Shown here piece by piece: positions 1,807 to 24,123 of a stretch of DNA of 32,339 bases. Each line of letters opens with the position of its first letter. The stretch's first letter is position 1. Origin of the DNA: Pirellulales bacterium (GTDB taxonomy: Bacteria > Patescibacteriota > Patescibacteriia > JBDRGY01); NCBI GenBank assembly GCA_048633705.1, contig JAIWBS010000029.1, positions 1-32,339 of the forward strand, in the 5' to 3' direction. The position numbers and the translations under genes were made by a program. Under the pieces are notes generated by a model. That model was not told where the DNA came from and did no database searches. It saw nothing but the letters and a program-made list of their open reading frames with translations.

Positions 1807-1882
1807 TGGTCGGGGTGAGAGGATTCGAACCTCCGATCTCGTGCTCCCAAAGCACGCGCCTTAGCCACTAGGCTACACCCCG
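1807..1882 (-). tRNA. tRNA-Pro (anticodon TGG), CCA encoded
   Basis: Reverse complement: CGGGGTG TA GCCT..AGGC G CGTGC-TTTGGGA-GCACG AGATC GGAGG-TTCGAAT-CCTCT CACCCCG A CCA. Confidence 0.92.
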
Positions 1883-2248
1883 TTATTTCTTATATCGTTT
1901 TTCGTTGGTTTTATATCCAGTGTCAGAAGTCCATTTAAGAAATATTTTCTTTTTGAAGCCGCCTTTTTTTCTCATGTTCTTTTTTCGAGCTATGGCGATC
2001 TGCTTATTAGAAACTTTCTTAATTTTCTTAATTTCTTCAATCACCTCAATTACATCAGCTAATTCATCAATCAATTCTTTTTTAGATCGGGTAGCGGTCA
2101 AGCCACTAGCTTCCTCCTCTACTTTCTGAATCAACTTCTTTTCAAATTCTTTACTGTTTAATATTCTATAAGAACCTATGCCTCCAGAATTTTCAATCCT
2201 ATCAGGAATTCTATCTCGGATTAACTTATTGTAGTAAATGCGTTTCAT
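1883..2248 (-). CDS. MazG-like / phosphoribosyl-ATP pyrophosphohydrolase-like NTP pyrophosphatase (121 aa)
   Basis: The N-terminal YNKLIRDRIPDRIE motif and the later EELADVIEVIEEI helix are typical of the small MazG-like all-alpha NTP-PPase family. The stop codon abuts tRNA-Pro position +1. Confidence 0.6.
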   Translation of the reverse strand: MKRIYYNKLIRDRIPDRIENSGGIGSYRILNSKEFEKKLIQKVEEEASGLTATRSKKELIDELADVIEVIEEIKKIKKVSNKQIAIARKKNMRKKGGFKKKIFLKWTSDTGYKTNEKRYKK

Positions 2249-2254
2249 AATTAA

Positions 2255-2330
2255 TGGTGCCGAGGGGCAGAATCGAACTGCCGACGCAAGGATTTTCAGT
2301 CCTTCGCTCTACCACTGAGCTACCTCGGCC
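2255..2330 (-). tRNA. tRNA-Phe (anticodon GAA), CCA encoded
   Basis: Reverse complement: GGCCGAG GT AGCTCAGTGGTAGAGC G AAGGA-CTGAAAA-TCCTT GCGTC GGCAG-TTCGATT-CTGCC CCTCGGC A CCA. Confidence 0.92.
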
Positions 2331-2347: not shown

Positions 2348-2440
2348 TGGTGGGTACGGTCCCGCCGTTGGCGGGACGACCTCGCTCGCCTCGCTTCGCG
2401 TGAGCGAAGCGGGTCATTACCTACCCGCCGTACGGATACC
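2348..2440 (-). ncRNA. GC-rich tRNA-sized structured element ending in a tRNA 3'-half-like module (AGGTC, GTCCCGC-CAACG-GCGGGAC, CGTACCC, ACCA)
   Basis: There are three perfect hairpins: 2359-2377, 2392-2411 and 2410-2427. The 3' module at 2348-2382 mimics the adjacent tRNA-Ile(GAT) 3' end: same AGGTC, and CGTACCCACCA versus CGTGCCCACCA. GC content is far above the flanks. It does not fit a canonical cloverleaf. Confidence 0.4.
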
Positions 2441-2459: not shown

Positions 2460-2536
2460 TGGTGGGCACGGAAGGATTTGAACCTTCGACCTCGTCATTA
2501 TCAGTGACGCGCTCTAACCAACTGAGCTACGTGCCC
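2460..2536 (-). tRNA. tRNA-Ile (anticodon GAT), CCA encoded, downstream of 16S
   Basis: Reverse complement: GGGCACG TA GCTC AGTTGGTTA GAGC G CGTCA-CTGATAA-TGACG AGGTC GAAGG-TTCAAAT-CCTTC CGTGCCC A CCA. Confidence 0.92.
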
Positions 2537-2674
2537 GTAAAACCTATAAAAAGAAGTTCAATGTCAACAAGTATATACTAATTTACCAGAAATATTTGAA
2601 TTTGACAAGGGTCTTTTCTTTTATTTTTACAATTTTATTGTAACAAAAAAACCAATTATTAAAATCGGTTTTTT

Positions 2675-2702
2675 GTCTTTAACAACCAAACAGTGACAGA
2701 AG
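2675..2702 (-). promoter_or_regulatory. 3' arm of the 16S rRNA processing stem (probable RNase III substrate)
   Basis: Plus-strand gtctttaacaaccaaacagtgacagaag is nearly the reverse complement of 4347-4374 on the other side of the 16S gene. In the minus-sense transcript the two arms pair over ~28 nt, and the T/C differences become G-U pairs. Confidence 0.7.
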
Positions 2703-2801
2703 AAAAACGTTCTCCCCGATATTATCGGGGTCGACCCATCTCTAGGTAAAGAGATTGGATAAAGTGCCGAATTCGGACACTCTATCGGAAATTCTCCCTA
2801 G

Positions 2802-4286
<1,485 letters not shown>

Positions 4287-6327: not shown

Positions 6328-6396
6328 TCAGAATTTTGTTAATTATTTAAGTAATATGGATATTATCGGAAATAACCGATTTTGTCAACCAATTGA

Positions 6397-9063
6397 CTAT
6401 TCTGCGTAGCCAATCACTTTTTCTGCTTCGTCCATTTTTACACTTAAAAGCCGGGAGATGCCGTCTTCACCCATCGTTACTCCGTAAAGAATTTTGCCGA
6501 TGTGCATAGTGGCTCTATTGTGAGTAACCAAGATAAATTGGGTTTTTCTGGACAGTTCGTTAATAATAGCAGCATATCTTTCGGAATTAGCTTCGTCCAG
6601 GGCTGCATCAACTTCATCTAAAATCACAAAAGGAGAAGGGTTGTTGGAAATTATAGCACAAAGAAGGGCAATTGAAGTCAAAGCCTTTTCCCCACCGGAA
6701 AGCATATTTATACTTTTTAACCTTTTACCTGGCGGCGTTGCGTAGATTTCCACTCCCGCGATTACTTTTTCCGTCTTCTTTCTAGCCTGACTTTTTTCTT
6801 TTTTCTGGTCAGGTACCTCTTCCTCATCTAATTCTTCCCCTTCCTCATCACCCTGAATAACCGTTCTTTGTAATGATAATTTGGCTTGCCCACCTTTAAA
6901 AAGAGTTTTAAAATACTGGCCGAATTGCTCGTTTATTTTTTTAAAAGTGGCATCAAATTGTTTTTTAATTGTTTCATCTAATTCTCCAATGGCTTGAGCC
7001 AAATGATCAATTGCCTTGTTTAAATCATCCGATTGGGTCTTTAAATGGTTATGACGCGATTTAGTATCTTCATATTCCTTGACAGTCTCTGGATCGATAC
7101 CGCCGATCAATTCAATTTGGTTTTTTAATTTATGGATTTTTTCCGACAGTTCTGACCTGGACCAATCGTCTTGAGAATAGTCCGTTTGGGTTAACTTAAT
7201 AACTTGGTCCTGTAATTCTTCTGCTAACTCATCTTTCATTTCAATTTCTAAATCTTCTTTTTTGGTTTCCGCTCTGGCCAGGTTTACTTTGATTTCATTC
7301 AAATGTCGGGCTACTACATTTAATTCTGCTTGTTTCTCCTGAAATTTTCTTTGCCAACCTATTAATTCATCTCTTTTCTGCTGCTCCACTTTATTAAAAT
7401 TGGTAATTTTTACTTTGGCTATATCTAATTGCTTGTCCAGATTTTTGATTTGTTCCACAATCACCTGGTTTTGGTTTTCAGCATAGATCAAGGCTAATTT
7501 CTGGTCTGTTGGCTCACCTTTGATCTGGGCCAATTCTTGCTCGATCTTTTGGTGGTCCTCTCGCAATTTATCCAGATTTTTGCTCTGTAATTTATGTTTT
7601 TCTTGCTTCAACTGCAACGAAATCCTCAGGTAATAGATTTCGTTGACCAAATTGTCTTTCTTCTTGAAAAATAAAGTTAAATTATCCTGAATTCTCAAAA
7701 TTTCTTCGGGATCAGCAGATATACTGTTTTTTCTCAAACGGTTTTTTAACTCTTCTAAACGGCTTTTTAACTTCTCGGCCCTAATTTTGATCTTATCAAT
7801 ATCCTTAATGTCCTCCAGGTGGTTCAATTCGTGAATAATCTTTTCTTGGTCTTCGAATATAGAGTCAATTTCTTCCCTGATTTCAGGAATAGGCAGGGTT
7901 TTACTGGATAACTTTTCTTTGGCGGTAATTAGTTCATCCTCCAGTCGTTTAAACTCGTTAACCACTCTATCCTGTTTATGCAACTTGGAGTCGAGCTGCT
8001 GAGATTTTTCTTTAATTAATCCGTCTAATTCAATAAGTTCCTTTTTTATTTTTGTTTTTTCCGAATTTAATTCCTCTTTCCTTCTTTCCAAGAAAACTAG
8101 GTCATAACCGCCTGCTTTTTGTTGCTCCACCTCTAACTTGCCTTTCAAAGAGGCTTGTTGTTGCAACAAAGAATTTTTCTTTTCCAGCAGTTCTTCGTGT
8201 TGTTTCTGTAAATCCTGAAAAACTTCCTGCCGGGTGGCGCTTTTGGCCATTCGATTGATTTCTTCTTGAATTTTTTCTACTTCTTTTTCAACTATCCTTT
8301 TTTTGTCGCCCTCTGATTGACTTTTTTCTTCCAACTTTTTATGTTCGCAGAGAATCTCCTGCCAGAGATGGCCATAATATTGCAGCTGGAGGTTTTTTAA
8401 TTCTTCCTCAATCACTTCTCGTCTTTCCAATCGACGTACTTGCCTGGTCAGAGATCTTAACCTCGGTTCAATTTCCTGCATCAAAAGTTCGGCTTGGTGC
8501 AAATTCTCTTTGGTATGCTCTAACTTTTTTAATGCCTCTTCCTTTTTAATCTGGTATTGTTTTACTCCGGTCGCTTCATCAAAAAAATCTTTTCTTTCAT
8601 AGGGCGTAGCTGACAAAATTTTATCAACTGATCCCTGGCCAATCACCGAATAAGACCGCTGACCGAAATTGGCTCTAGCCAGCAATAATATGATATCTTG
8701 CAACCTGACTCGGTTTTTGTTTATTAAATATTCTGATTCCCCATCACGATAAAGACGCCGGGAAATTACCATCTCGGAGTAATCAATGGGGGCTGACCGA
8801 TCTTCGTTGTTTAAAAAAAGATCCACCTGAGCAAAACCTAATCTTGTTTTGGTCTTGGATCCGGCAAATATTACATCTTGAGCCTTTTTGCCTCTTAACA
8901 GTTTTAAACTTTGTTCACCCAATACCCATCTGACCGCATCGGCAATATTGGATTTTCCAGAACCGTTGGGCCCAACAATACAAGCAACCCCCCGGTTAAA
9001 CTCTAGGGTGGTTTTATGGGCGAATGATTTAAAACCTTGAATAACTAATTTCTGAAGATACAT
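6397..9063 (-). CDS. smc: SMC chromosome-segregation ATPase homologue, short (888 aa), no recognisable hinge domain
   Basis: The N-terminal head reads QGFKSFA...GPNGSGKSNIADAVRWVLGEQS. The C-terminal head reads LSGGEKALTSIAL...ILDEVDAALDE...THN. The ~520 aa between the heads read as continuous coiled coil. Confidence 0.88.
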   Translation of the reverse strand: MYLQKLVIQGFKSFAHKTTLEFNRGVACIVGPNGSGKSNIADAVRWVLGEQSLKLLRGKKAQDVIFAGSKTKTRLGFAQVDLFLNNEDRSAPIDYSEMVISRRLYRDGESEYLINKNRVRLQDIILLLARANFGQRSYSVIGQGSVDKILSATPYERKDFFDEATGVKQYQIKKEEALKKLEHTKENLHQAELLMQEIEPRLRSLTRQVRRLERREVIEEELKNLQLQYYGHLWQEILCEHKKLEEKSQSEGDKKRIVEKEVEKIQEEINRMAKSATRQEVFQDLQKQHEELLEKKNSLLQQQASLKGKLEVEQQKAGGYDLVFLERRKEELNSEKTKIKKELIELDGLIKEKSQQLDSKLHKQDRVVNEFKRLEDELITAKEKLSSKTLPIPEIREEIDSIFEDQEKIIHELNHLEDIKDIDKIKIRAEKLKSRLEELKNRLRKNSISADPEEILRIQDNLTLFFKKKDNLVNEIYYLRISLQLKQEKHKLQSKNLDKLREDHQKIEQELAQIKGEPTDQKLALIYAENQNQVIVEQIKNLDKQLDIAKVKITNFNKVEQQKRDELIGWQRKFQEKQAELNVVARHLNEIKVNLARAETKKEDLEIEMKDELAEELQDQVIKLTQTDYSQDDWSRSELSEKIHKLKNQIELIGGIDPETVKEYEDTKSRHNHLKTQSDDLNKAIDHLAQAIGELDETIKKQFDATFKKINEQFGQYFKTLFKGGQAKLSLQRTVIQGDEEGEELDEEEVPDQKKEKSQARKKTEKVIAGVEIYATPPGKRLKSINMLSGGEKALTSIALLCAIISNNPSPFVILDEVDAALDEANSERYAAIINELSRKTQFILVTHNRATMHIGKILYGVTMGEDGISRLLSVKMDEAEKVIGYAE

Positions 9064-20245: not shown

Positions 20246-20250
20246 TGTAG

Positions 20251-20284
20251 AGGTCGTCCCGCCAAGGCGGGACATCACCCACCA
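20251..20284 (+). other. tRNA 3'-half-like module 1: AGGTC, GTCCCGC-CAAG-GCGGGAC, ATCACCC, ACCA
   Basis: It starts 5 nt after the CCA of tRNA-Val(GAC). It has a perfect 7-bp hairpin where a T arm would be. No complementary 5' acceptor strand (GGGTGAT) is found nearby. Confidence 0.5.
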
Positions 20285-20313
20285 CTATCCCAAAATCACA
20301 CGGGTCAAACAAG

Positions 20314-20348
20314 AGGTCACCCCGCCAGAGGCGGGGTCGCTTCCACCA
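20314..20348 (+). other. tRNA 3'-half-like module 2: AGGTC, ACCCCGC-CAGAG-GCGGGGT, CGCTTCC, ACCA
   Basis: The last 12 nt, TCGCTTCCACCA, differ at one position from the tRNA-Val(GAC) 3' end TCGCTCCCACCA. Same architecture as module 1. Confidence 0.5.
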
Positions 20349-21744: not shown

Positions 21745-21984
21745 ATGAACTATGTTTATGGAATCCTTTGTATCTTAGGTGGAATTTGGTTGATAGTCGG
21801 TACTCAAAGCATCTTGAGAATGTTCGGCAGCAATGAATGGGCCGAGGAACATCTGGGCATGTGGGGAGGCTCAAGAACTTTTACTAAGTGGATTGGCCTT
21901 GGCTTAATACTCCTTGGCTTTATATTTATGGGTGGTTGGTTCGGCCCAATAGTTAGAAAAATATTTTCATCCACTGGTCAATAA
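21745..21984 (+). CDS. Hypothetical small membrane protein (79 aa, two hydrophobic helices)
   Basis: The ORF fills the gap between tRNA-Val(TAC) and the tRNA-Ala complex. It has two clear TM-like segments. No known motif. Confidence 0.5.
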   Translation: MNYVYGILCILGGIWLIVGTQSILRMFGSNEWAEEHLGMWGGSRTFTKWIGLGLILLGFIFMGGWFGPIVRKIFSSTGQ

Positions 21985-21986
21985 GA

Positions 21987-22021
21987 GGGCCCTTAGCTCA
22001 TTTAGTAGAGCACCTGTCTTG
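21987..22021 (+). other. Outer tRNA-Ala-like 5' half (acceptor, D arm, 5' anticodon stem, loop positions 32-35)
   Basis: GGGCCCT TA GCTC ATTTAGTA GAGC A CCTGT CTTG matches the first 35 nt of the intact tRNA-Ala at 22082 at 30 of 35 positions (hand count). Confidence 0.55.
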
Positions 22022-22081
22022 TCCCGATGTACATAATAAAATTACGGCAGTGCGCATCGAGAATCCACGATAGCCTCTGGT

Positions 22082-22157
22082 GGGCCTTTAGCTCATTTGG
22101 TAGAGCGCCTGCTTTGCATGCAGGAGGTGACCGGTTCGATCCCGGTAAGGTCCACCA
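22082..22157 (+). tRNA. tRNA-Ala (anticodon TGC), G3:U70, CCA encoded
   Basis: GGGCCTT TA GCTC ATTTGGTA GAGC G CCTGC-TTTGCAT-GCAGG AGGTG ACCGG-TTCGATC-CCGGT AAGGTCC A CCA. It is flanked by the perfect 14-nt complement cgatagcctctggt (22068-22081) / accagaggctatcg (22154-22167). Confidence 0.92.
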
Positions 22158-22170
22158 GAGGCTATCGGAA

Positions 22171-22212
22171 CATGTAGGAGGTGATCCCGCGTCCGCGGGA
22201 TAGGGTCCACCA
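22171..22212 (+). other. Outer tRNA-Ala-like 3' half with a hairpin in place of the T arm
   Basis: CAT GTAGG AGGTG ATCCCGC-GTCC-GCGGGAT AGGGTCC ACCA. AGGGTCC pairs with GGGCCCT at 21987-21993 with a G3:U70 wobble. GTAGG pairs with CCTGT at 22013-22017. Confidence 0.55.
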
Positions 22213-22241
22213 GAAAATTTTTTTGATAATTTTTTACACAT

Positions 22242-22273
22242 AAAAAACCCGAGAAACCGTCTCGAGTTTTTTT
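22242..22273. terminator. Bidirectional intrinsic terminator between the tRNA cluster (+) and the amidase gene (-)
   Basis: Hairpin CGAGA-aaccg-TCTCG (22250-22264) is flanked by an A-run upstream and a T-run downstream. Confidence 0.55.
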
Positions 22274-22287
22274 GTTGTTAATCTGAC

Positions 22288-24123
22288 TTAATCCACCCGG
22301 GTAATCAGACTAAAATTGCCATTTTGGATAGTTATATTTCTACTAGTTGATTCTAGACGGAAAATCTGTTTATAGATACCAGTTTGGCGGTTGCGATAAA
22401 CAAATTCGAAAGTACCCGTTTCCCCAGGGGCCACCGTTGATTCTTTTAACCTAAACTGGCCGCTAGAACTGGGCCAGCTGTTATCGACAAATCTGCTTGG
22501 TTGATAACTTAAATCATAAACGTTAAGCCGTAAATTCTGATCCCAAGTAGCTATTCCGGTGTTTTTGAATTTTATTGTGGCTTTAGGCTTCCAGATTGAT
22601 AAGATGGCAGGAGGGATGTTATGTTCGATCAACTCCGCTTGATAATGAGAATCCACTCTGGTAATAAAATTTACCCTACCGTTGATAATTTCCTCACCTT
22701 CACAAAATAGTTTGAAAATTTGTTTATAAAGACCCGGGCTGCTGGGTGATTTGAGATAAAAAACAAAAGTAGCTGTTTCACCATTTTTAACACTATCCTC
22801 AACTTGCCTAATTTCCCCATCTTGAGTAACCCAAGACGAATCACGGTAGGCAGAAGGATTCAGGTTAAGATCATAGATATTTAAATAACTGTTCTCTTTG
22901 GTCCAAGTTTTGACACCTTTATTAACAAAACGAAAAGTTGTTCTAATCTTGGCTCCCACAAAACTAGCCGGCAATATATCGTCCATAGATAAATCAGCGG
23001 CATATTCCAAACCAACCACTTCAACTTCTACCGTAAAACGGGAACCGGGAATCTCTTCACCATCATAGACCAAATAAAAAGTTTCGGTAGCCAACAACTG
23101 ATCAATAGGTGCTTTGATTGTAAAGGAAACTCGGCCGGTTTCTTGAGGGGCGATATTGCCTTCTTCAAAGTCAACCTGGTTTTCGCCGATTGAAGAAAGC
23201 TGGAGAAGGCTGTTTTTATCATAATTTGCCGAAACTAAATAAACCGTATCTTCAAAATATCTTCGCCAAGTGAAATTGCCGGTATTTTTATAATCAGCCC
23301 AAATCGTGGCTGTTTGACCAGTCCTTAACTCCAACTCTGTGGCACTTTGTTCGATCAGCTTGGCTTTTACCACTGGCACAAAAGATGCGCCGGTATCTTT
23401 TAGTCTGGTGTATTTCACTTGAACATCTGATCTTATGCTTTCTAACTTGGCTTCTAAATTCTCACCAGGGCACAAGGTGCAGTCAACATCTTGATGACCA
23501 ATAATATTAGGCAAATCCTCCAAATCTTGAAAATCACTTTGACCTTTCGGGCTAATCCCAAAATCGACGGCTTTATGGGCAATCAAATTAACCAGAGCGA
23601 CTAAGGCTTTCTGACCGGGTGAATTTTCTTCATAATTACCCAGTAGAGCTATCCCTATTGTTCCCGCATTAAAATCAAAACCTTCATCTTCCCCGCCAAA
23701 ACGAATTACGTTACATCTTGAGTCTCTATAAGCATGGGCGCCAATTGCCCCATCCCCGCCTTTTCTGCCTTGGTAAATATTACCCTCACCATCAATTAGA
23801 TAATTATAGCCGATGTCGCCCCAACCCAGAATTTGGGCATGATAGTAATAAATAGCTCTAATTGTCGCTTTAGGGTCATTCCCTCCATTAGAACCGGCTG
23901 TATGATGGATAATAAACTTTTTGGGTCTCTGATACTGAACCGGCCAAATTGTTTCTCTTTCTGAATCTAAAAGGTAATCACTATCAGCTTTCCATTCAAG
24001 ACGGGAAATAATTACCAAATCGTCTGAAGCAGAATAGACGAACTTTGGGCATAAAAAAACCGCTAATACAATAGCGGTAAAAATTACCAAAAATAACCTA
24101 AATTGGCTAAGTGCTTTTTTCAT
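22288..24123 (-). CDS. Secreted N-acetylmuramoyl-L-alanine amidase (Amidase_2/PGRP domain) with ~4 C-terminal Ig-like (NBR1-like) repeats
   Basis: Signal peptide MKKALSQFRLFLVIFTAIVLAVFL. Amidase_2 motifs IIHHTAG, GWGDIGYNYLIDGEGNIYQGR, GAHA and GHQDVDCTLCPG. The C-terminal repeats carry the KNTG..TW motif. Confidence 0.88.
   Translation of the reverse strand: MKKALSQFRLFLVIFTAIVLAVFLCPKFVYSASDDLVIISRLEWKADSDYLLDSERETIWPVQYQRPKKFIIHHTAGSNGGNDPKATIRAIYYYHAQILGWGDIGYNYLIDGEGNIYQGRKGGDGAIGAHAYRDSRCNVIRFGGEDEGFDFNAGTIGIALLGNYEENSPGQKALVALVNLIAHKAVDFGISPKGQSDFQDLEDLPNIIGHQDVDCTLCPGENLEAKLESIRSDVQVKYTRLKDTGASFVPVVKAKLIEQSATELELRTGQTATIWADYKNTGNFTWRRYFEDTVYLVSANYDKNSLLQLSSIGENQVDFEEGNIAPQETGRVSFTIKAPIDQLLATETFYLVYDGEEIPGSRFTVEVEVVGLEYAADLSMDDILPASFVGAKIRTTFRFVNKGVKTWTKENSYLNIYDLNLNPSAYRDSSWVTQDGEIRQVEDSVKNGETATFVFYLKSPSSPGLYKQIFKLFCEGEEIINGRVNFITRVDSHYQAELIEHNIPPAILSIWKPKATIKFKNTGIATWDQNLRLNVYDLSYQPSRFVDNSWPSSSGQFRLKESTVAPGETGTFEFVYRNRQTGIYKQIFRLESTSRNITIQNGNFSLITRVD

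What the first reader, a model, noticed from the sequence alone, without database searches (positions are those of the whole stretch)
21987..22212. tRNA-Ala-like gene split in its anticodon loop by a 149-nt insert that carries an intact tRNA-Ala clamped in a 14-bp helix
What the sequence shows directly:
- Positions 21987-22021 read GGGCCCT TA GCTC ATTTAGTA GAGC A CCTGT CTTG. This is a tRNA 5' half and matches the neighbouring tRNA-Ala at 30 of 35 positions.
- Positions 22171-22212 read CAT GTAGG AGGTG ATCCCGC-GTCC-GCGGGAT AGGGTCC ACCA.
- Joined, the two halves give a 7-bp acceptor stem with the Ala identity pair G3:U70.
- They also give an anticodon stem CCTGT/GTAGG (3 Watson-Crick and 2 G-U pairs) and a 7-nt loop CTTGCAT, which is anticodon TGC.
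- The T arm is replaced by a perfect 7-bp stem with a tetraloop, so there is no T-loop.
- The intervening 149 nt (22022-22170) contain a canonical tRNA-Ala(TGC) at 22082-22157.
- That inner tRNA's leader cgatagcctctggt and trailer accagaggctatcg are perfectly complementary. They extend its acceptor stem through the CCA into a continuous 21-bp helix.

I do not know of a described bacterial arrangement like this. At 149 nt, half of it tRNA, the insert is too short for a group I intron.

Hypotheses (inference only):
1. It is a nested or split tRNA-like RNA. Excising the inner tRNA (by RNase P/Z, or by RNase III acting on the long helix; rnc is in this window) would leave two outer halves able to anneal.
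2. It is the scar of a tRNA-carrying mini-element inserted into an older tRNA-Ala.
3. It is the decayed remains of tandem tRNA-Ala copies. This does not explain the perfect 14-nt flanks.
Basis: partly seen in the sequence, partly recalled or inferred. Interest (0 to 1): 0.75.

Follow-up and report, generated by a model that had tools for sequence, protein, structure and literature searches.

The report
Old tRNA gene split by tRNA cassette
The resident alanine-tRNA gene has been broken open by a short insert that carries its own working alanine tRNA, and this is one copy of a widespread, apparently undescribed kind of tRNA-replacing genetic element in ultra-small (Patescibacteria) bacteria.

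Summary
An intact tRNA-Ala(UGC) at 22082-22157, held in a 21-bp helix, sits inside the anticodon loop of a second tRNA-Ala-like sequence. That outer sequence has a 7-bp/tetraloop hairpin in place of its T arm.

The arrangement is not unique, and it is probably not a designed nested RNA.
- The syntenic locus in a related genome has a plain, intact tRNA-Ala with exactly the outer acceptor stem. The outer halves are therefore the old resident gene.
- The 3' module (AGGTS, RY-CCCGC-N4-5-GCGGG-RY hairpin, acceptor 3' strand, ACCA) occurs four times in this window. It also occurs in about 60 low-GC loci, mostly Patescibacteria, nearly always just downstream of an intact tRNA of the same isotype and often with a matching outer 5' fragment.
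- In several such nests the insert also encodes an ~80-aa stand-alone GIY-YIG nuclease. All seven contexts of homologues of that nuclease that I fetched show an intact tRNA abutting the ORF, flanked by tRNA pieces with a CCCGC hairpin in place of an arm.

Best reading: this is an ORF-less copy or relic of a tRNA-carrying, nuclease-associated cassette that invades a tRNA gene of the same isotype. How the cassette moves, and whether the outer RNA retains any role, remain unproven.

The parts
21987..22021 (+). Outer 5' half (psi-tRNA-Ala positions 1-35): acceptor 5' strand GGGCCCT, D arm, anticodon-stem 5' strand, and CTTG of the loop. This is a relic of the resident tRNA-Ala gene.
   Evidence: Matches the inner tRNA at 30 of 35 positions. 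The acceptor strand is identical to the intact tRNA-Ala at the syntenic site in L123/L124. The conserved G18 is changed to A (alignment A1).
22022..22067 (+). Left spacer of the insert. It forms a small side hairpin and has no homologue among the fetched loci.
   Evidence: Fold. blastn against all fetched loci finds only the tRNA parts.
22068..22081 (+). Clamp 5' strand (leader cgatagcctctggt).
   Evidence: Inverted repeat I1. The sequence is unique in the window. Comparable clamps of 11-15 bp occur around inner tRNAs in L002, L008/L130, L030, L127, L037 and L176.
22082..22157 (+). Intact tRNA-Ala(UGC), the cargo or replacement copy, and the only tRNA-Ala in the window.
   Evidence: ARAGORN. 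Rfam tRNA, 65.3 bits.
22158..22170 (+). Trailer gaggctatcg plus gaa. Together with ACCA it forms the clamp 3' strand (22154-22167).
22171..22183 (+). Outer 3' half, first part: CAT of the anticodon loop, anticodon-stem 3' strand GTAGG, and variable loop AGGTG.
   Evidence: Matches the inner tRNA at 13 of 14 positions (D2).
22184..22201 (+). Family-specific hairpin ATCCCGC-GTCC-GCGGGAT, which stands exactly where the T arm (positions 49-65) should be.
   Evidence: The same CCCGC...GCGGG hairpin occupies the same position in three other modules of the window and in about 60 loci elsewhere.
22202..22212 (+). Outer acceptor 3' strand AGGGTCC plus ACCA. It pairs 7 of 7 with 21987-21993, including G3:U70.
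   Evidence: Identical to the 3' end of the intact L123 tRNA-Ala.
22240..22275 (+). Intrinsic-terminator-like hairpin and T run that close the transcription unit after the outer 3' end.
   Evidence: stem 22250-22264 followed by a T run. Weak Rfam terminator-type matches.
20246..20284 (+). Sister module B, directly after tRNA-Val(GAC): TGTAG AGGTC GTCCCGC-CAAG-GCGGGAC ATCACCC ACCA. It is the relic of the tRNA-Val allele that is still intact in L121 and L123.
20314..20348 (+). Sister module C: AGGTC ACCCCGC-CAGAG-GCGGGGT CGCTTCC ACCA.
2348..2426 (-). Sister element A: a stand-alone psi-tRNA-Ile after 16S and tRNA-Ile(GAT). GGGTAGG ... GCTTCGC-tcac-GCGAAGC ... AGGTC GTCCCGC-CAACG-GCGGGAC CGTACCC ACCA.

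Best explanation
The outer halves are the former resident tRNA-Ala gene of this locus. It was inactivated when a short cassette entered its anticodon loop between positions 35 and 36. The cassette brings a complete tRNA-Ala(UGC) flanked by a leader/trailer clamp. The resident T arm is replaced by a CCCGC-type hairpin.

This is an ORF-less copy or relic of a recurrent family of tRNA-replacing cassettes found mainly in Patescibacteria. In full form such a cassette carries three things:
- an intact cargo tRNA;
- an ~80-aa stand-alone (Slx1/UPF0213-like) GIY-YIG nuclease gene abutting that tRNA;
- CCCGC hairpins standing in for an arm of the invaded tRNA.

Proposed mechanism (inferred, not shown):
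1. The nuclease breaks a resident tRNA gene of the same isotype.
2. Repair from a cassette-bearing copy installs the cargo tRNA, so translation is not harmed.
3. The old gene survives as a 5' fragment upstream, a 3' fragment downstream, or both. The arm that was the target is replaced by the hairpin, so the relic is no longer a target or a usable tRNA.
4. Repeated rounds give Russian-doll nests and tail arrays.

In the window the whole nest is transcribed as one unit. The inner tRNA is the functional product. The clamp probably keeps it folding independently of the near-identical outer halves.

Shown: the ancestry of the outer halves, the recurrence of the architecture, and the physical link to GIY-YIG genes. 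Inferred: cleavage by the nuclease, repair-mediated copying, and the roles of the hairpin and the clamp.
For: **1. Empty site.** L123/L124 share the order RluA, L19, Leu(gag), Val(tac), 79-aa ORF, Ala(tgc), amidase. They have a plain tRNA-Ala with acceptor GGGCCCT/AGGGTCC, identical to the window's outer stem, directly after the ORF stop. It has a normal T arm.

**2. Serial replacement at the neighbouring Val(gac) locus.**
- L121 has a plain tRNA with acceptor GGGTGAT/ATCACCC.
- L123 has the same tRNA nested between an outer 5' fragment (GGGTTCG...) and a hairpin module ending CGAACCC ACCA.
- The window has a different tRNA-Val followed by module B, which keeps the GTAG and ATCACCC of the L121/L123 tRNA.

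**3. Recurrence of the module.**
- It occurs four times in the window.
- Across loci with GC at or below 0.56 there are 66 non-redundant instances. Of these, 44 have a same-strand tRNA within 700 nt upstream, and most of the rest sit at locus ends.
- In 26 of the 44, the acceptor 3' strand fits that tRNA's own 5' strand.
- In 15 there is a separate outer 5' fragment that pairs 7 of 7.
- Outer and inner are always the same isotype but often differ at several acceptor pairs, all compensatory (L030, L075, L008, L123).

**4. Nuclease link.**
- GIY-YIG ORFs (Pfam PF01541, E = 1.5e-17 and 7e-12) lie inside nests with the T-arm-type hairpin: L037, L111 and L136 (tRNA, ORF, module) and L071 (outer 5' fragment, ORF, tRNA, module). 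L096 has fragments.
- I fetched seven contexts of homologues, chosen by protein similarity alone: L111, L112, L114, L115, L173, L175 and L176. All seven have an intact tRNA abutting the ORF. All have at least one copy of that tRNA with an arm replaced by a CCCGC hairpin.

**5. The clamp is a cassette feature.** Leader/trailer helices of 12-13 bp flank the cargo tRNA in the ORF-bearing L176 and L037. Helices of 11 bp or more occur in 12 of 116 tRNAs surveyed, against a background mode of 5-7 bp.

**6. Loss of a tRNA-specific feature.** The outer half has lost the conserved G18, and ARAGORN does not call the joined halves a tRNA.
Against: - No GIY-YIG ORF or remnant is detectable anywhere in the 32-kb window. 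The link to the nuclease is therefore by family resemblance only.
- Most T-arm-type modules (roughly 9 in 10) have no ORF nearby.
- The nuclease belongs to the stand-alone Slx1-like lineage. It has no DNA-binding domain, and I found no report that it acts as a homing enzyme. Its target is unknown.
- It is unexplained why the cargo tRNA, which keeps a normal T arm and anticodon arm, would escape cleavage.
- How an arm is exchanged so exactly for the same CCCGC hairpin in independent events is not explained by any step I could test.
- Three features look like constraint on the transcript, which a pure relic would not need. First, G-T outnumbers A-C by 19 to 4 in the two outer hairpin pairs. Second, the left junctions fall in cloverleaf loops. 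Third, clamps recur with unrelated sequences.
- The window's inner and outer copies are each other's closest relatives in the anticodon arm. An in-situ copy cannot therefore be told apart from import from a close strain.
Confidence: 0.68

Rival explanations
1. The nest is a functional RNA design. The outer tRNA-like shell (acceptor stem, D arm, inert hairpin instead of the T arm, ACCA end) would be kept by selection. It could serve as a processing or stability scaffold for the inner tRNA, with end maturation by RNase P and exonucleases and release of the inner tRNA after RNase III cuts the 21-bp clamp. Alternatively it could act as a two-piece tRNA-like RNA with a role of its own, for example as a decoy or a non-ribosomal Ala acceptor through G3:U70.
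For: - The whole unit lies between an ORF stop and a terminator.
- The fold is far more stable than shuffles, and the nested topology is the minimum-free-energy structure here and in 9 other loci.
- The hairpin's outer pairs covary (GT/AC, AC/GT, AT/AT, GC/GC) and show G-T 19 times against A-C 4 times on the tRNA strand.
- Clamps recur with different sequences, one of them with a U-G pair (L127).
- Insert junctions fall in loops, not helices.
- rnc is present.
Against: - Close relatives have a plain tRNA-Ala at this site, so the shell is not needed for tRNA-Ala production.
- The outer shell varies freely between loci: 5' fragments of 10 to 38 nt, or none at all.
- Val, Ile and Met shells lack the anticodon those synthetases need, so a charging role cannot be general.
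- The G-T excess could come from C-to-T bias on the non-template strand of a highly transcribed gene.
- Acceptor pairing is inherited from a real tRNA and is not evidence of ongoing selection.
Confidence: 0.2
2. The duplicated tRNA pieces are attachment-site scars of an integrase-type element (phage or genomic island). Such an element recombines in the anticodon loop, and here it would have been almost completely deleted since.
For: The module's homology to the upstream tRNA starts in the anticodon loop (positions 33-38), which is a classical crossover site for tRNA-targeting integrases (integrase sublocation preference is from my own knowledge). One locus (L175) has a serine recombinase gene next to the GIY-YIG gene.
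Against: - No integrase lies in or near the nests.
- Spacers are only 8-380 nt.
- Integration gives hybrid tRNA, island, then a 3' copy. It does not give a nested 5'-half/full/3'-half order.
- An att copy keeps the native T arm, whereas here it is replaced by a specific hairpin.
- The module pattern is nearly absent from viral contigs (2 hits).
Confidence: 0.04
3. The insert is an intron of the outer tRNA-Ala: a degenerate group I intron or an archaeal-type bulge-helix-bulge intron. It would be spliced out to give a T-loop-less tRNA.
For: The position, inside the anticodon between positions 35 and 36, is typical of bacterial tRNA group I introns (PMC3984707).
Against: - No group I or any other ribozyme family matches, even at E up to 10.
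- At 149 nt, of which 76 are a tRNA, there is no room for a catalytic core.
- The junctions form a symmetric internal loop, not a bulge-helix-bulge (fold, read directly).
- Relatives have the uninterrupted gene with a normal T arm.
Confidence: 0.02
4. The locus is the chance decay of ordinary tandem or local duplications of tRNA-Ala.
For: The inner and outer copies are very similar (30/35, 13/14, 13/14).
Against: The order is nested, not tandem. The T arm is swapped for a hairpin shared with about 60 other loci. There are perfect 14-nt complementary flanks. The same architecture occurs with other isotypes and in other phyla.
Confidence: 0.02

Closest known systems
Free-standing GIY-YIG homing endonuclease SegB in the phage T4 tRNA gene cluster (PMC2330249; also PMC13096335)
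   Same: A GIY-YIG nuclease gene sits among or next to tRNA genes. It cleaves a related genome's tRNA gene region and drives preferential inheritance of its own tRNA region by break repair, with no intron involved.
   Different: SegB is a phage protein of the I-TevI/Seg lineage. The nuclease here is an ~80-aa catalytic domain of the bacterial Slx1/UPF0213 lineage, found in cellular Patescibacteria genomes. T4 shows no nested tRNA-in-tRNA, no hairpin-substituted arms and no clamp. Nuclease activity is untested here.
Mobile GIY-YIG ORF in Allomyces mitochondrial atp6 that brings a replacement gene end and displaces the resident end (Paquin, Laforest and Lang 1994; recalled from memory, not read here)
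   Same: An endonuclease-bearing insert disrupts an essential gene but carries a functional substitute for the disrupted part. The resident part is left behind as a nearby pseudogene fragment.
   Different: That case is a protein-coding gene in a fungal organelle, with no RNA-structure features. Here a whole tRNA is supplied and the relic's arm is replaced by a specific hairpin.
tRNA-gene att duplications made by integrases of phages and genomic islands
   Same: A partial 3' copy of a tRNA, beginning in the anticodon loop, lies downstream of an intact tRNA.
   Different: No integrase and no island are present. The T arm is replaced. 5' fragments occur as well, in nested order.
Group I introns in bacterial tRNA anticodon loops (PMC3984707)
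   Same: An intervening sequence lies inside the anticodon loop of a bacterial tRNA gene, sometimes with a GIY-YIG homing endonuclease ORF.
   Different: No ribozyme is present. The host tRNA is not restored by splicing but replaced by a second, complete tRNA.
Intervening sequences of bacterial rRNA excised by RNase III without religation (from my own knowledge)
   Same: A long helix inserted at a loop of a structured RNA.
   Different: In rRNA the fragmented host RNA is the functional product. Here the host shell has lost its T loop and G18, and relatives do without the insert.
Repeats of the tRNA-Tyr 3' end downstream of E. coli tyrT (from my own knowledge)
   Same: Short copies of a tRNA 3' end, including CCA, are repeated downstream of the intact gene, as in the tail arrays of L100, L156 and L076.
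   Different: The tyrT repeats have no hairpin substitution, no nested 5' fragments and no nuclease link.

Membership tests
Canonical bacterial tRNA (outer sequence) | Cloverleaf with a T arm and T loop (GTTCRANYC), G18/G19, detectable by tRNA models. | tested here: not met
   The T arm is replaced by a 7-bp/4-nt hairpin and G18 is changed to A. There is no Rfam tRNA hit for the halves. ARAGORN does not call the joined halves, even at relaxed settings.
Group I intron in tRNA | Conserved ribozyme core (P3-P9), usually longer than 200 nt. | tested here: not met
   cmscan of 21900-22300 at E up to 10 gives no intron or ribozyme family. The insert is 149 nt, of which 76 are a tRNA.
Archaeal-type intron or split tRNA | Bulge-helix-bulge motif at both junctions (two 3-nt bulges separated by a 4-bp helix). 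| tested here: not met
   In the fold the junctions lie in a roughly symmetric 6/5-nt internal loop between the anticodon stem and a CCGA/UCGG helix, so there are no staggered bulges. Presence of a splicing endonuclease was not tested.
tmRNA (one- or two-piece) | tRNA-Ala-like domain with a T arm, plus a tag reading frame and pseudoknots. | tested here: not met
   ARAGORN tmRNA search is negative. The only hit is an 11-bit chance-level match to permuted tmRNA.
Integrase att-site duplication at a tRNA gene | Integrase gene and an element body between direct repeats, with the displaced 3' copy keeping the native sequence. | tested here: not met
   No such ORF is present. The gaps are 13 and 60 nt here and 8-380 nt elsewhere. 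The T arm is replaced.
Free-standing homing-endonuclease cassette | An endonuclease gene within the mobile segment. | tested here: not met
   The window has no GIY-YIG ORF or remnant of 20 aa or more. The feature is met in the related nests L037, L111, L136, L071, L112, L114, L115, L173, L175 and L176.
Free-standing homing-endonuclease cassette | Presence/absence polymorphism at an otherwise conserved site in relatives. | tested here: met
   The Ala site is filled in the window and L170, and empty in L123/L124 and L121/L122. The Val(gac) site is plain in L121, nested in L123 and replaced with relics in the window.
Free-standing homing-endonuclease cassette | Site-specific cleavage of the empty allele by the encoded enzyme, followed by break-repair copying. 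| not testable with these tools
   Needs biochemistry or genetics. The enzyme belongs to the stand-alone Slx1-like lineage (1zg2, 1ywl), for which I found no report of homing.
MITE-type non-autonomous transposon | Terminal inverted repeats shared by many copies, plus a target-site duplication. | tested here: not met
   The 14-nt inverted repeat is unique in the window and has no match in viral contigs. Clamps in other loci have unrelated sequences. No target duplication is present: the outer halves abut at positions 35/36.
Hairpin-substituted psi-tRNA module family (defined here) | AGGTS, RY-CCCGC-N4-5-GCGGG-RY in place of the T arm, 7-nt acceptor 3' strand, ACCA, lying downstream of an intact tRNA of the same isotype. 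| tested here: met
   22179-22212 matches the pattern and lies 21 nt after tRNA-Ala.

The most novel reading that the evidence does not exclude
Patescibacteria, and some Omnitrophota and other small-genome lineages, host a previously undescribed class of selfish tRNA-replacement cassettes. Each has a minimal Slx1-like GIY-YIG nuclease gene fused end-to-end with a clamp-flanked cargo tRNA. The cassette invades a resident tRNA gene of the same isotype and substitutes the attacked arm with a CCCGC hairpin. It leaves Russian-doll psi-tRNA shells and so drives continual horizontal turnover of tRNA genes. The window's nested tRNA-Ala is an ORF-less product of this process.
Probability: 0.5. Interest if true: 0.8.

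Novelty: new variant of a known kind. Interest (0 to 1): 0.66.

Why it matters
If this reading holds, essential tRNA genes in the most reduced bacterial genomes are not static. They are repeatedly overwritten by mobile copies that bring their own replacement.

- That would explain odd tRNA-like fragments that annotation pipelines skip or mis-call.
- It would give a route for horizontal exchange of tRNA alleles between lineages.
- It would assign a first biological context to the very widespread but uncharacterised stand-alone GIY-YIG (UPF0213/Slx1-like) proteins.
- The hairpin-for-arm substitution and the leader/trailer clamp are concrete, testable sequence features. They bear on how a structure-specific nuclease might recognise a tRNA gene, and on how a cell keeps a tRNA folding correctly next to near-identical decoy halves.

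If instead the shell is functional RNA, it would be a new kind of bacterial pre-tRNA architecture.

Tried and rejected
- **Rfam on the window.** Gathering thresholds on the window, and E up to 10 on 21900-22300, gave only the inner tRNA and chance-level sRNA or miRNA matches.
- **Rfam on 14 related loci.** Only tRNAs and rRNAs were found. Two psi copies scored weakly as tRNA.
- **Literature.** I found no paper on nested tRNAs, on hairpin-substituted tRNA relics, or on GIY-YIG genes next to tRNAs in Patescibacteria. One search failed on syntax.
- **Phage link.** The module pattern has only 2 hits in viral contigs and the clamp sequence has none.
- **Exact look-up of the 79-aa ORF.** It is not on record. 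Exact L19 worked instead.
- **First regular expression for GIY-YIG.** It was too strict and missed L071. I replaced it with HMM searches.
- **Homology of the insert's spacer or clamp to other loci.** None was found.
- **Promoter inside the insert.** None was predicted.
- **Ideas considered and dropped:**
  - A CRISPR-repeat-like or Cas6 site: there is only a loose resemblance of the hairpin to type I-E repeats.
  - A terminator: no T run follows the hairpin, and true terminators lie further downstream.
  - An HDV-like tRNA-associated ribozyme (PMC10879173): no model match.
  - A tRNA-dependent cell-wall or lipid aminoacylation donor: the Val, Ile and Met shells lack an anticodon.
- **Nested versus tail-only.** Whether nested nests more often hold a foreign allele than tail-only ones gave only a borderline result (6/16 against 20/28 with an identical acceptor, Fisher p = 0.054).
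Full report
**Observation**

- ARAGORN and Rfam find one tRNA-Ala(tgc), at 22082-22157.
- Positions 21987-22021 repeat its first 35 nt at 30 of 35 positions. Positions 22171-22184 and 22201-22214 repeat its anticodon-stem/variable region and its 3' end at 13 of 14 positions each.
- Between those two 3' pieces, exactly where the T arm should be, stands ATCCCGC-GTCC-GCGGGAT.
- The leader cgatagcctctggt and the sequence ACCA+gaggctatcg extend the inner acceptor stem to a 21-nt inverted repeat.
- The minimum-free-energy fold of the 226 nt has the nested topology at -103.5 kcal/mol, with z = -6.3.
- An independent assembly of the same species carries the identical structure: L170, 99.67% identical, with no SNP in the element.
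- rnc is in the window.

**It is one of a family**

A structural scan of the window finds the same 3' module four times. The module is the variable loop AGGTS, a 7-bp hairpin with a CCCGC...GCGGG core and a 4-5-nt loop, a 7-nt acceptor 3' strand, then ACCA.
- One copy follows 16S and tRNA-Ile(GAT), at 2348-2382 on the minus strand. It is part of a stand-alone psi-tRNA-Ile with a second hairpin.
- Two copies follow tRNA-Val(GAC), at 20246-20284 and 20314-20348.
- One copy is the finding itself.

Scanning one genome per species with this pattern returned 110 stretches. The high-GC ones are chance. About 22 low-GC ones, mostly Patescibacteria, are real. A stricter pattern in metagenomes gave 43 more stretches.

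Across loci with GC at or below 0.56 there are 66 non-redundant instances.
- 44 have a same-strand tRNA within 700 nt upstream. Most of the others sit at the edge of the fetched DNA.
- The module copies that tRNA's 3' half from the anticodon loop onward, except for the T arm.
- In 26 cases its acceptor strand fits the tRNA's own 5' strand.
- In 15 cases a separate outer 5' fragment (acceptor 5' strand plus TAGCTC...) lies 30-380 nt upstream of the intact tRNA and pairs 7 of 7 with the module.

The minimum-free-energy folds of nine such nests all form the outer acceptor stem. Outer and inner are always the same isotype. They often differ at several acceptor pairs, and every such difference is compensatory. 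In L030, for example, the inner stem is GGGGATA/TATCTCC and the outer is GGGCTGT/ATAGTCC, and both keep G3:U70.

**The outer halves are the old resident gene**

Homologues of the 79-aa ORF that ends 2 nt before the element led to syntenic loci.
- In L123/L124 the site holds a plain tRNA-Ala(tgc). Its acceptor stem, GGGCCCT/AGGGTCC, is identical to the window's outer stem, and it has a normal T arm.
- In L121/L122 there is a plain tRNA-Ala followed by two short hairpin + GTCCACCA tails.
- The neighbouring Val(gac) site shows three states. It is plain in L121 (GGGTGAT/ATCACCC). The same tRNA is nested in an older shell in L123. In the window a different tRNA-Val is followed by module B, which keeps the GTAG and ATCACCC of the L121/L123 tRNA.

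Alleles that are functional in one genome are therefore relics in another, and replacement has happened repeatedly. In the window, the inner and outer Ala copies share the CCTG(C/T) stem and GCAT loop, against CCGCC and GCAA in L123. The donor was therefore a close relative or the locus itself. The outer copy has lost G18, and ARAGORN does not recognise the joined halves as a tRNA.

**Link to a nuclease gene**

In L037 the 239-nt gap between tRNA-Pro and its module encodes a 78-aa GIY-YIG protein. In L071 an 89-aa one lies between the outer 5' fragment and the inner tRNA-Ala. The Pfam PF01541 E-values are 1.5e-17 and 7e-12. An HMM built from 120 homologues also finds one between tRNA-Val(gac) and its module in L136. 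It finds another next to a tRNA in L127, and fragments in L096.

The L037 protein has more than 300 homologues, mostly from Patescibacteria. I fetched seven contexts chosen only by protein similarity. All seven show an intact tRNA (Pro, His, Ile, Thr, Gly, Gly, Pro) abutting the ORF. In four of them the ORF starts 1-12 nt after the tRNA. In three it ends at the tRNA. All seven also have copies of that same tRNA in which an arm is replaced by a CCCGC hairpin. The replaced arm is usually the anticodon arm, in L111 also the D arm, and in L111 and L037 the T arm of the downstream piece. These copies typically sit on both sides of the tRNA-ORF pair.

The general architecture is therefore psi-5', then {tRNA, nuclease gene} in either order, then psi-3'. 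The window has the same architecture without the ORF. No GIY-YIG remnant is detectable in the window.

The protein's nearest solved relatives are the UPF0213 proteins 1zg2 and 1ywl. A superfamily analysis places these in the stand-alone bacterial Slx1-like group, the minimal GIY-YIG domain (PMC1564403).

**The clamp**

Leader/trailer helices of 11-15 bp flank the inner tRNA in the window, L002, L008/L130 (Ala), L030 and L127. They also flank the cargo tRNA in the ORF-bearing L176 and L037. In L037 the 3' strand of the clamp covers the nuclease start codon. Their sequences are unrelated. Among 116 tRNAs in the fetched low-GC loci, 12 have such a helix of 11 bp or more, against a background mode of 5-7 bp. 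The clamp is thus a feature of the cassette, not a peculiarity of this locus. Its role is inferred. It may insulate the folding of the cargo tRNA from near-identical shell halves, control processing or translation, or act as a DNA hairpin for a structure-specific nuclease.

**Most likely mechanism, and what is not shown**

What is shown:
- the ancestry of the shell;
- the recurrence of the architecture, restricted to the same isotype;
- serial replacement;
- the physical link with the GIY-YIG gene.

What is inferred: the nuclease breaks a resident tRNA gene, and repair from a cassette-bearing copy installs the cargo tRNA, the ORF and the hairpin. The hairpin would then render the relic uncleavable and unusable. 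The variable left junction (positions about 10 to 38, in loops) and the constant right junction (hairpin, then position 66) would reflect asymmetric repair. Nests with a separate 5' fragment more often hold a divergent allele than tail-only ones, but only at p = 0.054.

What is unexplained:
- how the same hairpin is installed so precisely;
- why the cargo tRNA is immune;
- why G-T pairs (19) far outnumber A-C (4) in the hairpin's outer pairs. This points to constraint, or to mutation bias, on the transcribed sense strand.

A functional RNA shell therefore remains a live rival, at about 0.2.

**Comparison with known systems**

No group I or other ribozyme is present, there is no bulge-helix-bulge, and there is no tmRNA. 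No integrase or island is present. The clamp is not a multi-copy terminal repeat.

The closest precedents are free-standing GIY-YIG homing genes in tRNA clusters (T4 SegB, PMC2330249) and endonuclease inserts that carry a replacement for the gene part they displace (Allomyces atp6, recalled from memory). Neither shows a tRNA inside a tRNA, arm-for-hairpin substitution or clamps. I found no paper describing these features.

**Verdict**

The feature is real and correctly observed. It is best explained as the ORF-less product of a tRNA-replacing cassette family that appears to be undescribed. I rate it a new variant of a known kind (homing-type gene replacement), with interest about 0.66.

Noticed in passing
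window 2348-2426 (-): A stand-alone psi-tRNA-Ile lies between tRNA-Ile(GAT) and tRNA-Phe, downstream of the 16S gene. It has an acceptor-like stem GGGTAGG/CGTACCC, a 7-bp hairpin GCTTCGC-tcac-GCGAAGC where the anticodon arm would be, and the CCCGC hairpin where the T arm would be. It folds with z = -2.95.
   Followed up: partly
window 2460-4286 (-) and 1807-2329 (-): The 16S gene is followed by tRNA-Ile(GAT), then tRNA-Phe and tRNA-Pro. There is no tRNA-Ala and no 23S, so the rRNA operon is unlinked. The only tRNA-Ala(UGC) in the window is the nested one.
   Followed up: no
window 20246-20348 (+): Two hairpin modules sit in tandem after tRNA-Val(GAC). Their acceptor strands are ATCACCC, the allele still intact in relatives L121/L123, and CGCTTCC, one transition from the current tRNA. 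The order suggests two successive replacements, with return to a near-original allele.
   Followed up: partly
L121 1700-1830, 1973-2070 and 2411-2470: In the closest syntenic relative, tRNA-Leu(gag), tRNA-Val(tac) and tRNA-Ala each have tails that repeat the tRNA 3' end from the T loop onward. Each tail is preceded by a hairpin. Two of these are not of the CCCGC type (GCGCCATGTC-ggat-GACATGGCG and CACGTCGCTC-gc-GAGCGACGTG). A second junction type and other hairpin sequences therefore exist.
   Followed up: no
L100 (minus-strand coordinates 6662-6746), L156 145-229, L076 about 2087-2600, L154 8-297: Tandem arrays of 2 to 6 or more nearly identical hairpin modules follow a single tRNA (Pro, Val, Ala).
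   Followed up: no
L111 1997-2001, L114 2000-2001, L115 1997-2001, L037 402-407: The GIY-YIG start codon lies 1-5 nt after the discriminator base of a tRNA that does not encode CCA. 3' processing of the tRNA would therefore leave an essentially leaderless mRNA. In L037 the start codon is also buried in the leader/trailer clamp.
   Followed up: no
L008 5677-6000 and L136 1380-1489: Some relics also carry a 35-41-nt hairpin-forming insertion in the anticodon loop, in addition to the T-arm hairpin. Several loops of one old tRNA can therefore be occupied.
   Followed up: no
L071 (Omnitrophota MAG), L002/L075 (MAGs labelled Gammaproteobacteria), L076 (MAG labelled Bacteroidetes): The module and nests also occur outside Patescibacteria, according to the record titles. 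This could reflect true horizontal spread or mis-binned contigs.
   Followed up: no
L175 1465-2625 (-): A large serine recombinase gene lies immediately next to, and overlaps the end of, one tRNA-linked GIY-YIG gene.
   Followed up: no
L042 (minus-strand coordinates 6384-6456): A tRNA-Ala(cgc) is flanked by a 16-bp leader/trailer helix that itself contains GTCCCGCAC/GTGCGGGAC. This links the clamp and the CCCGC motif.
   Followed up: no
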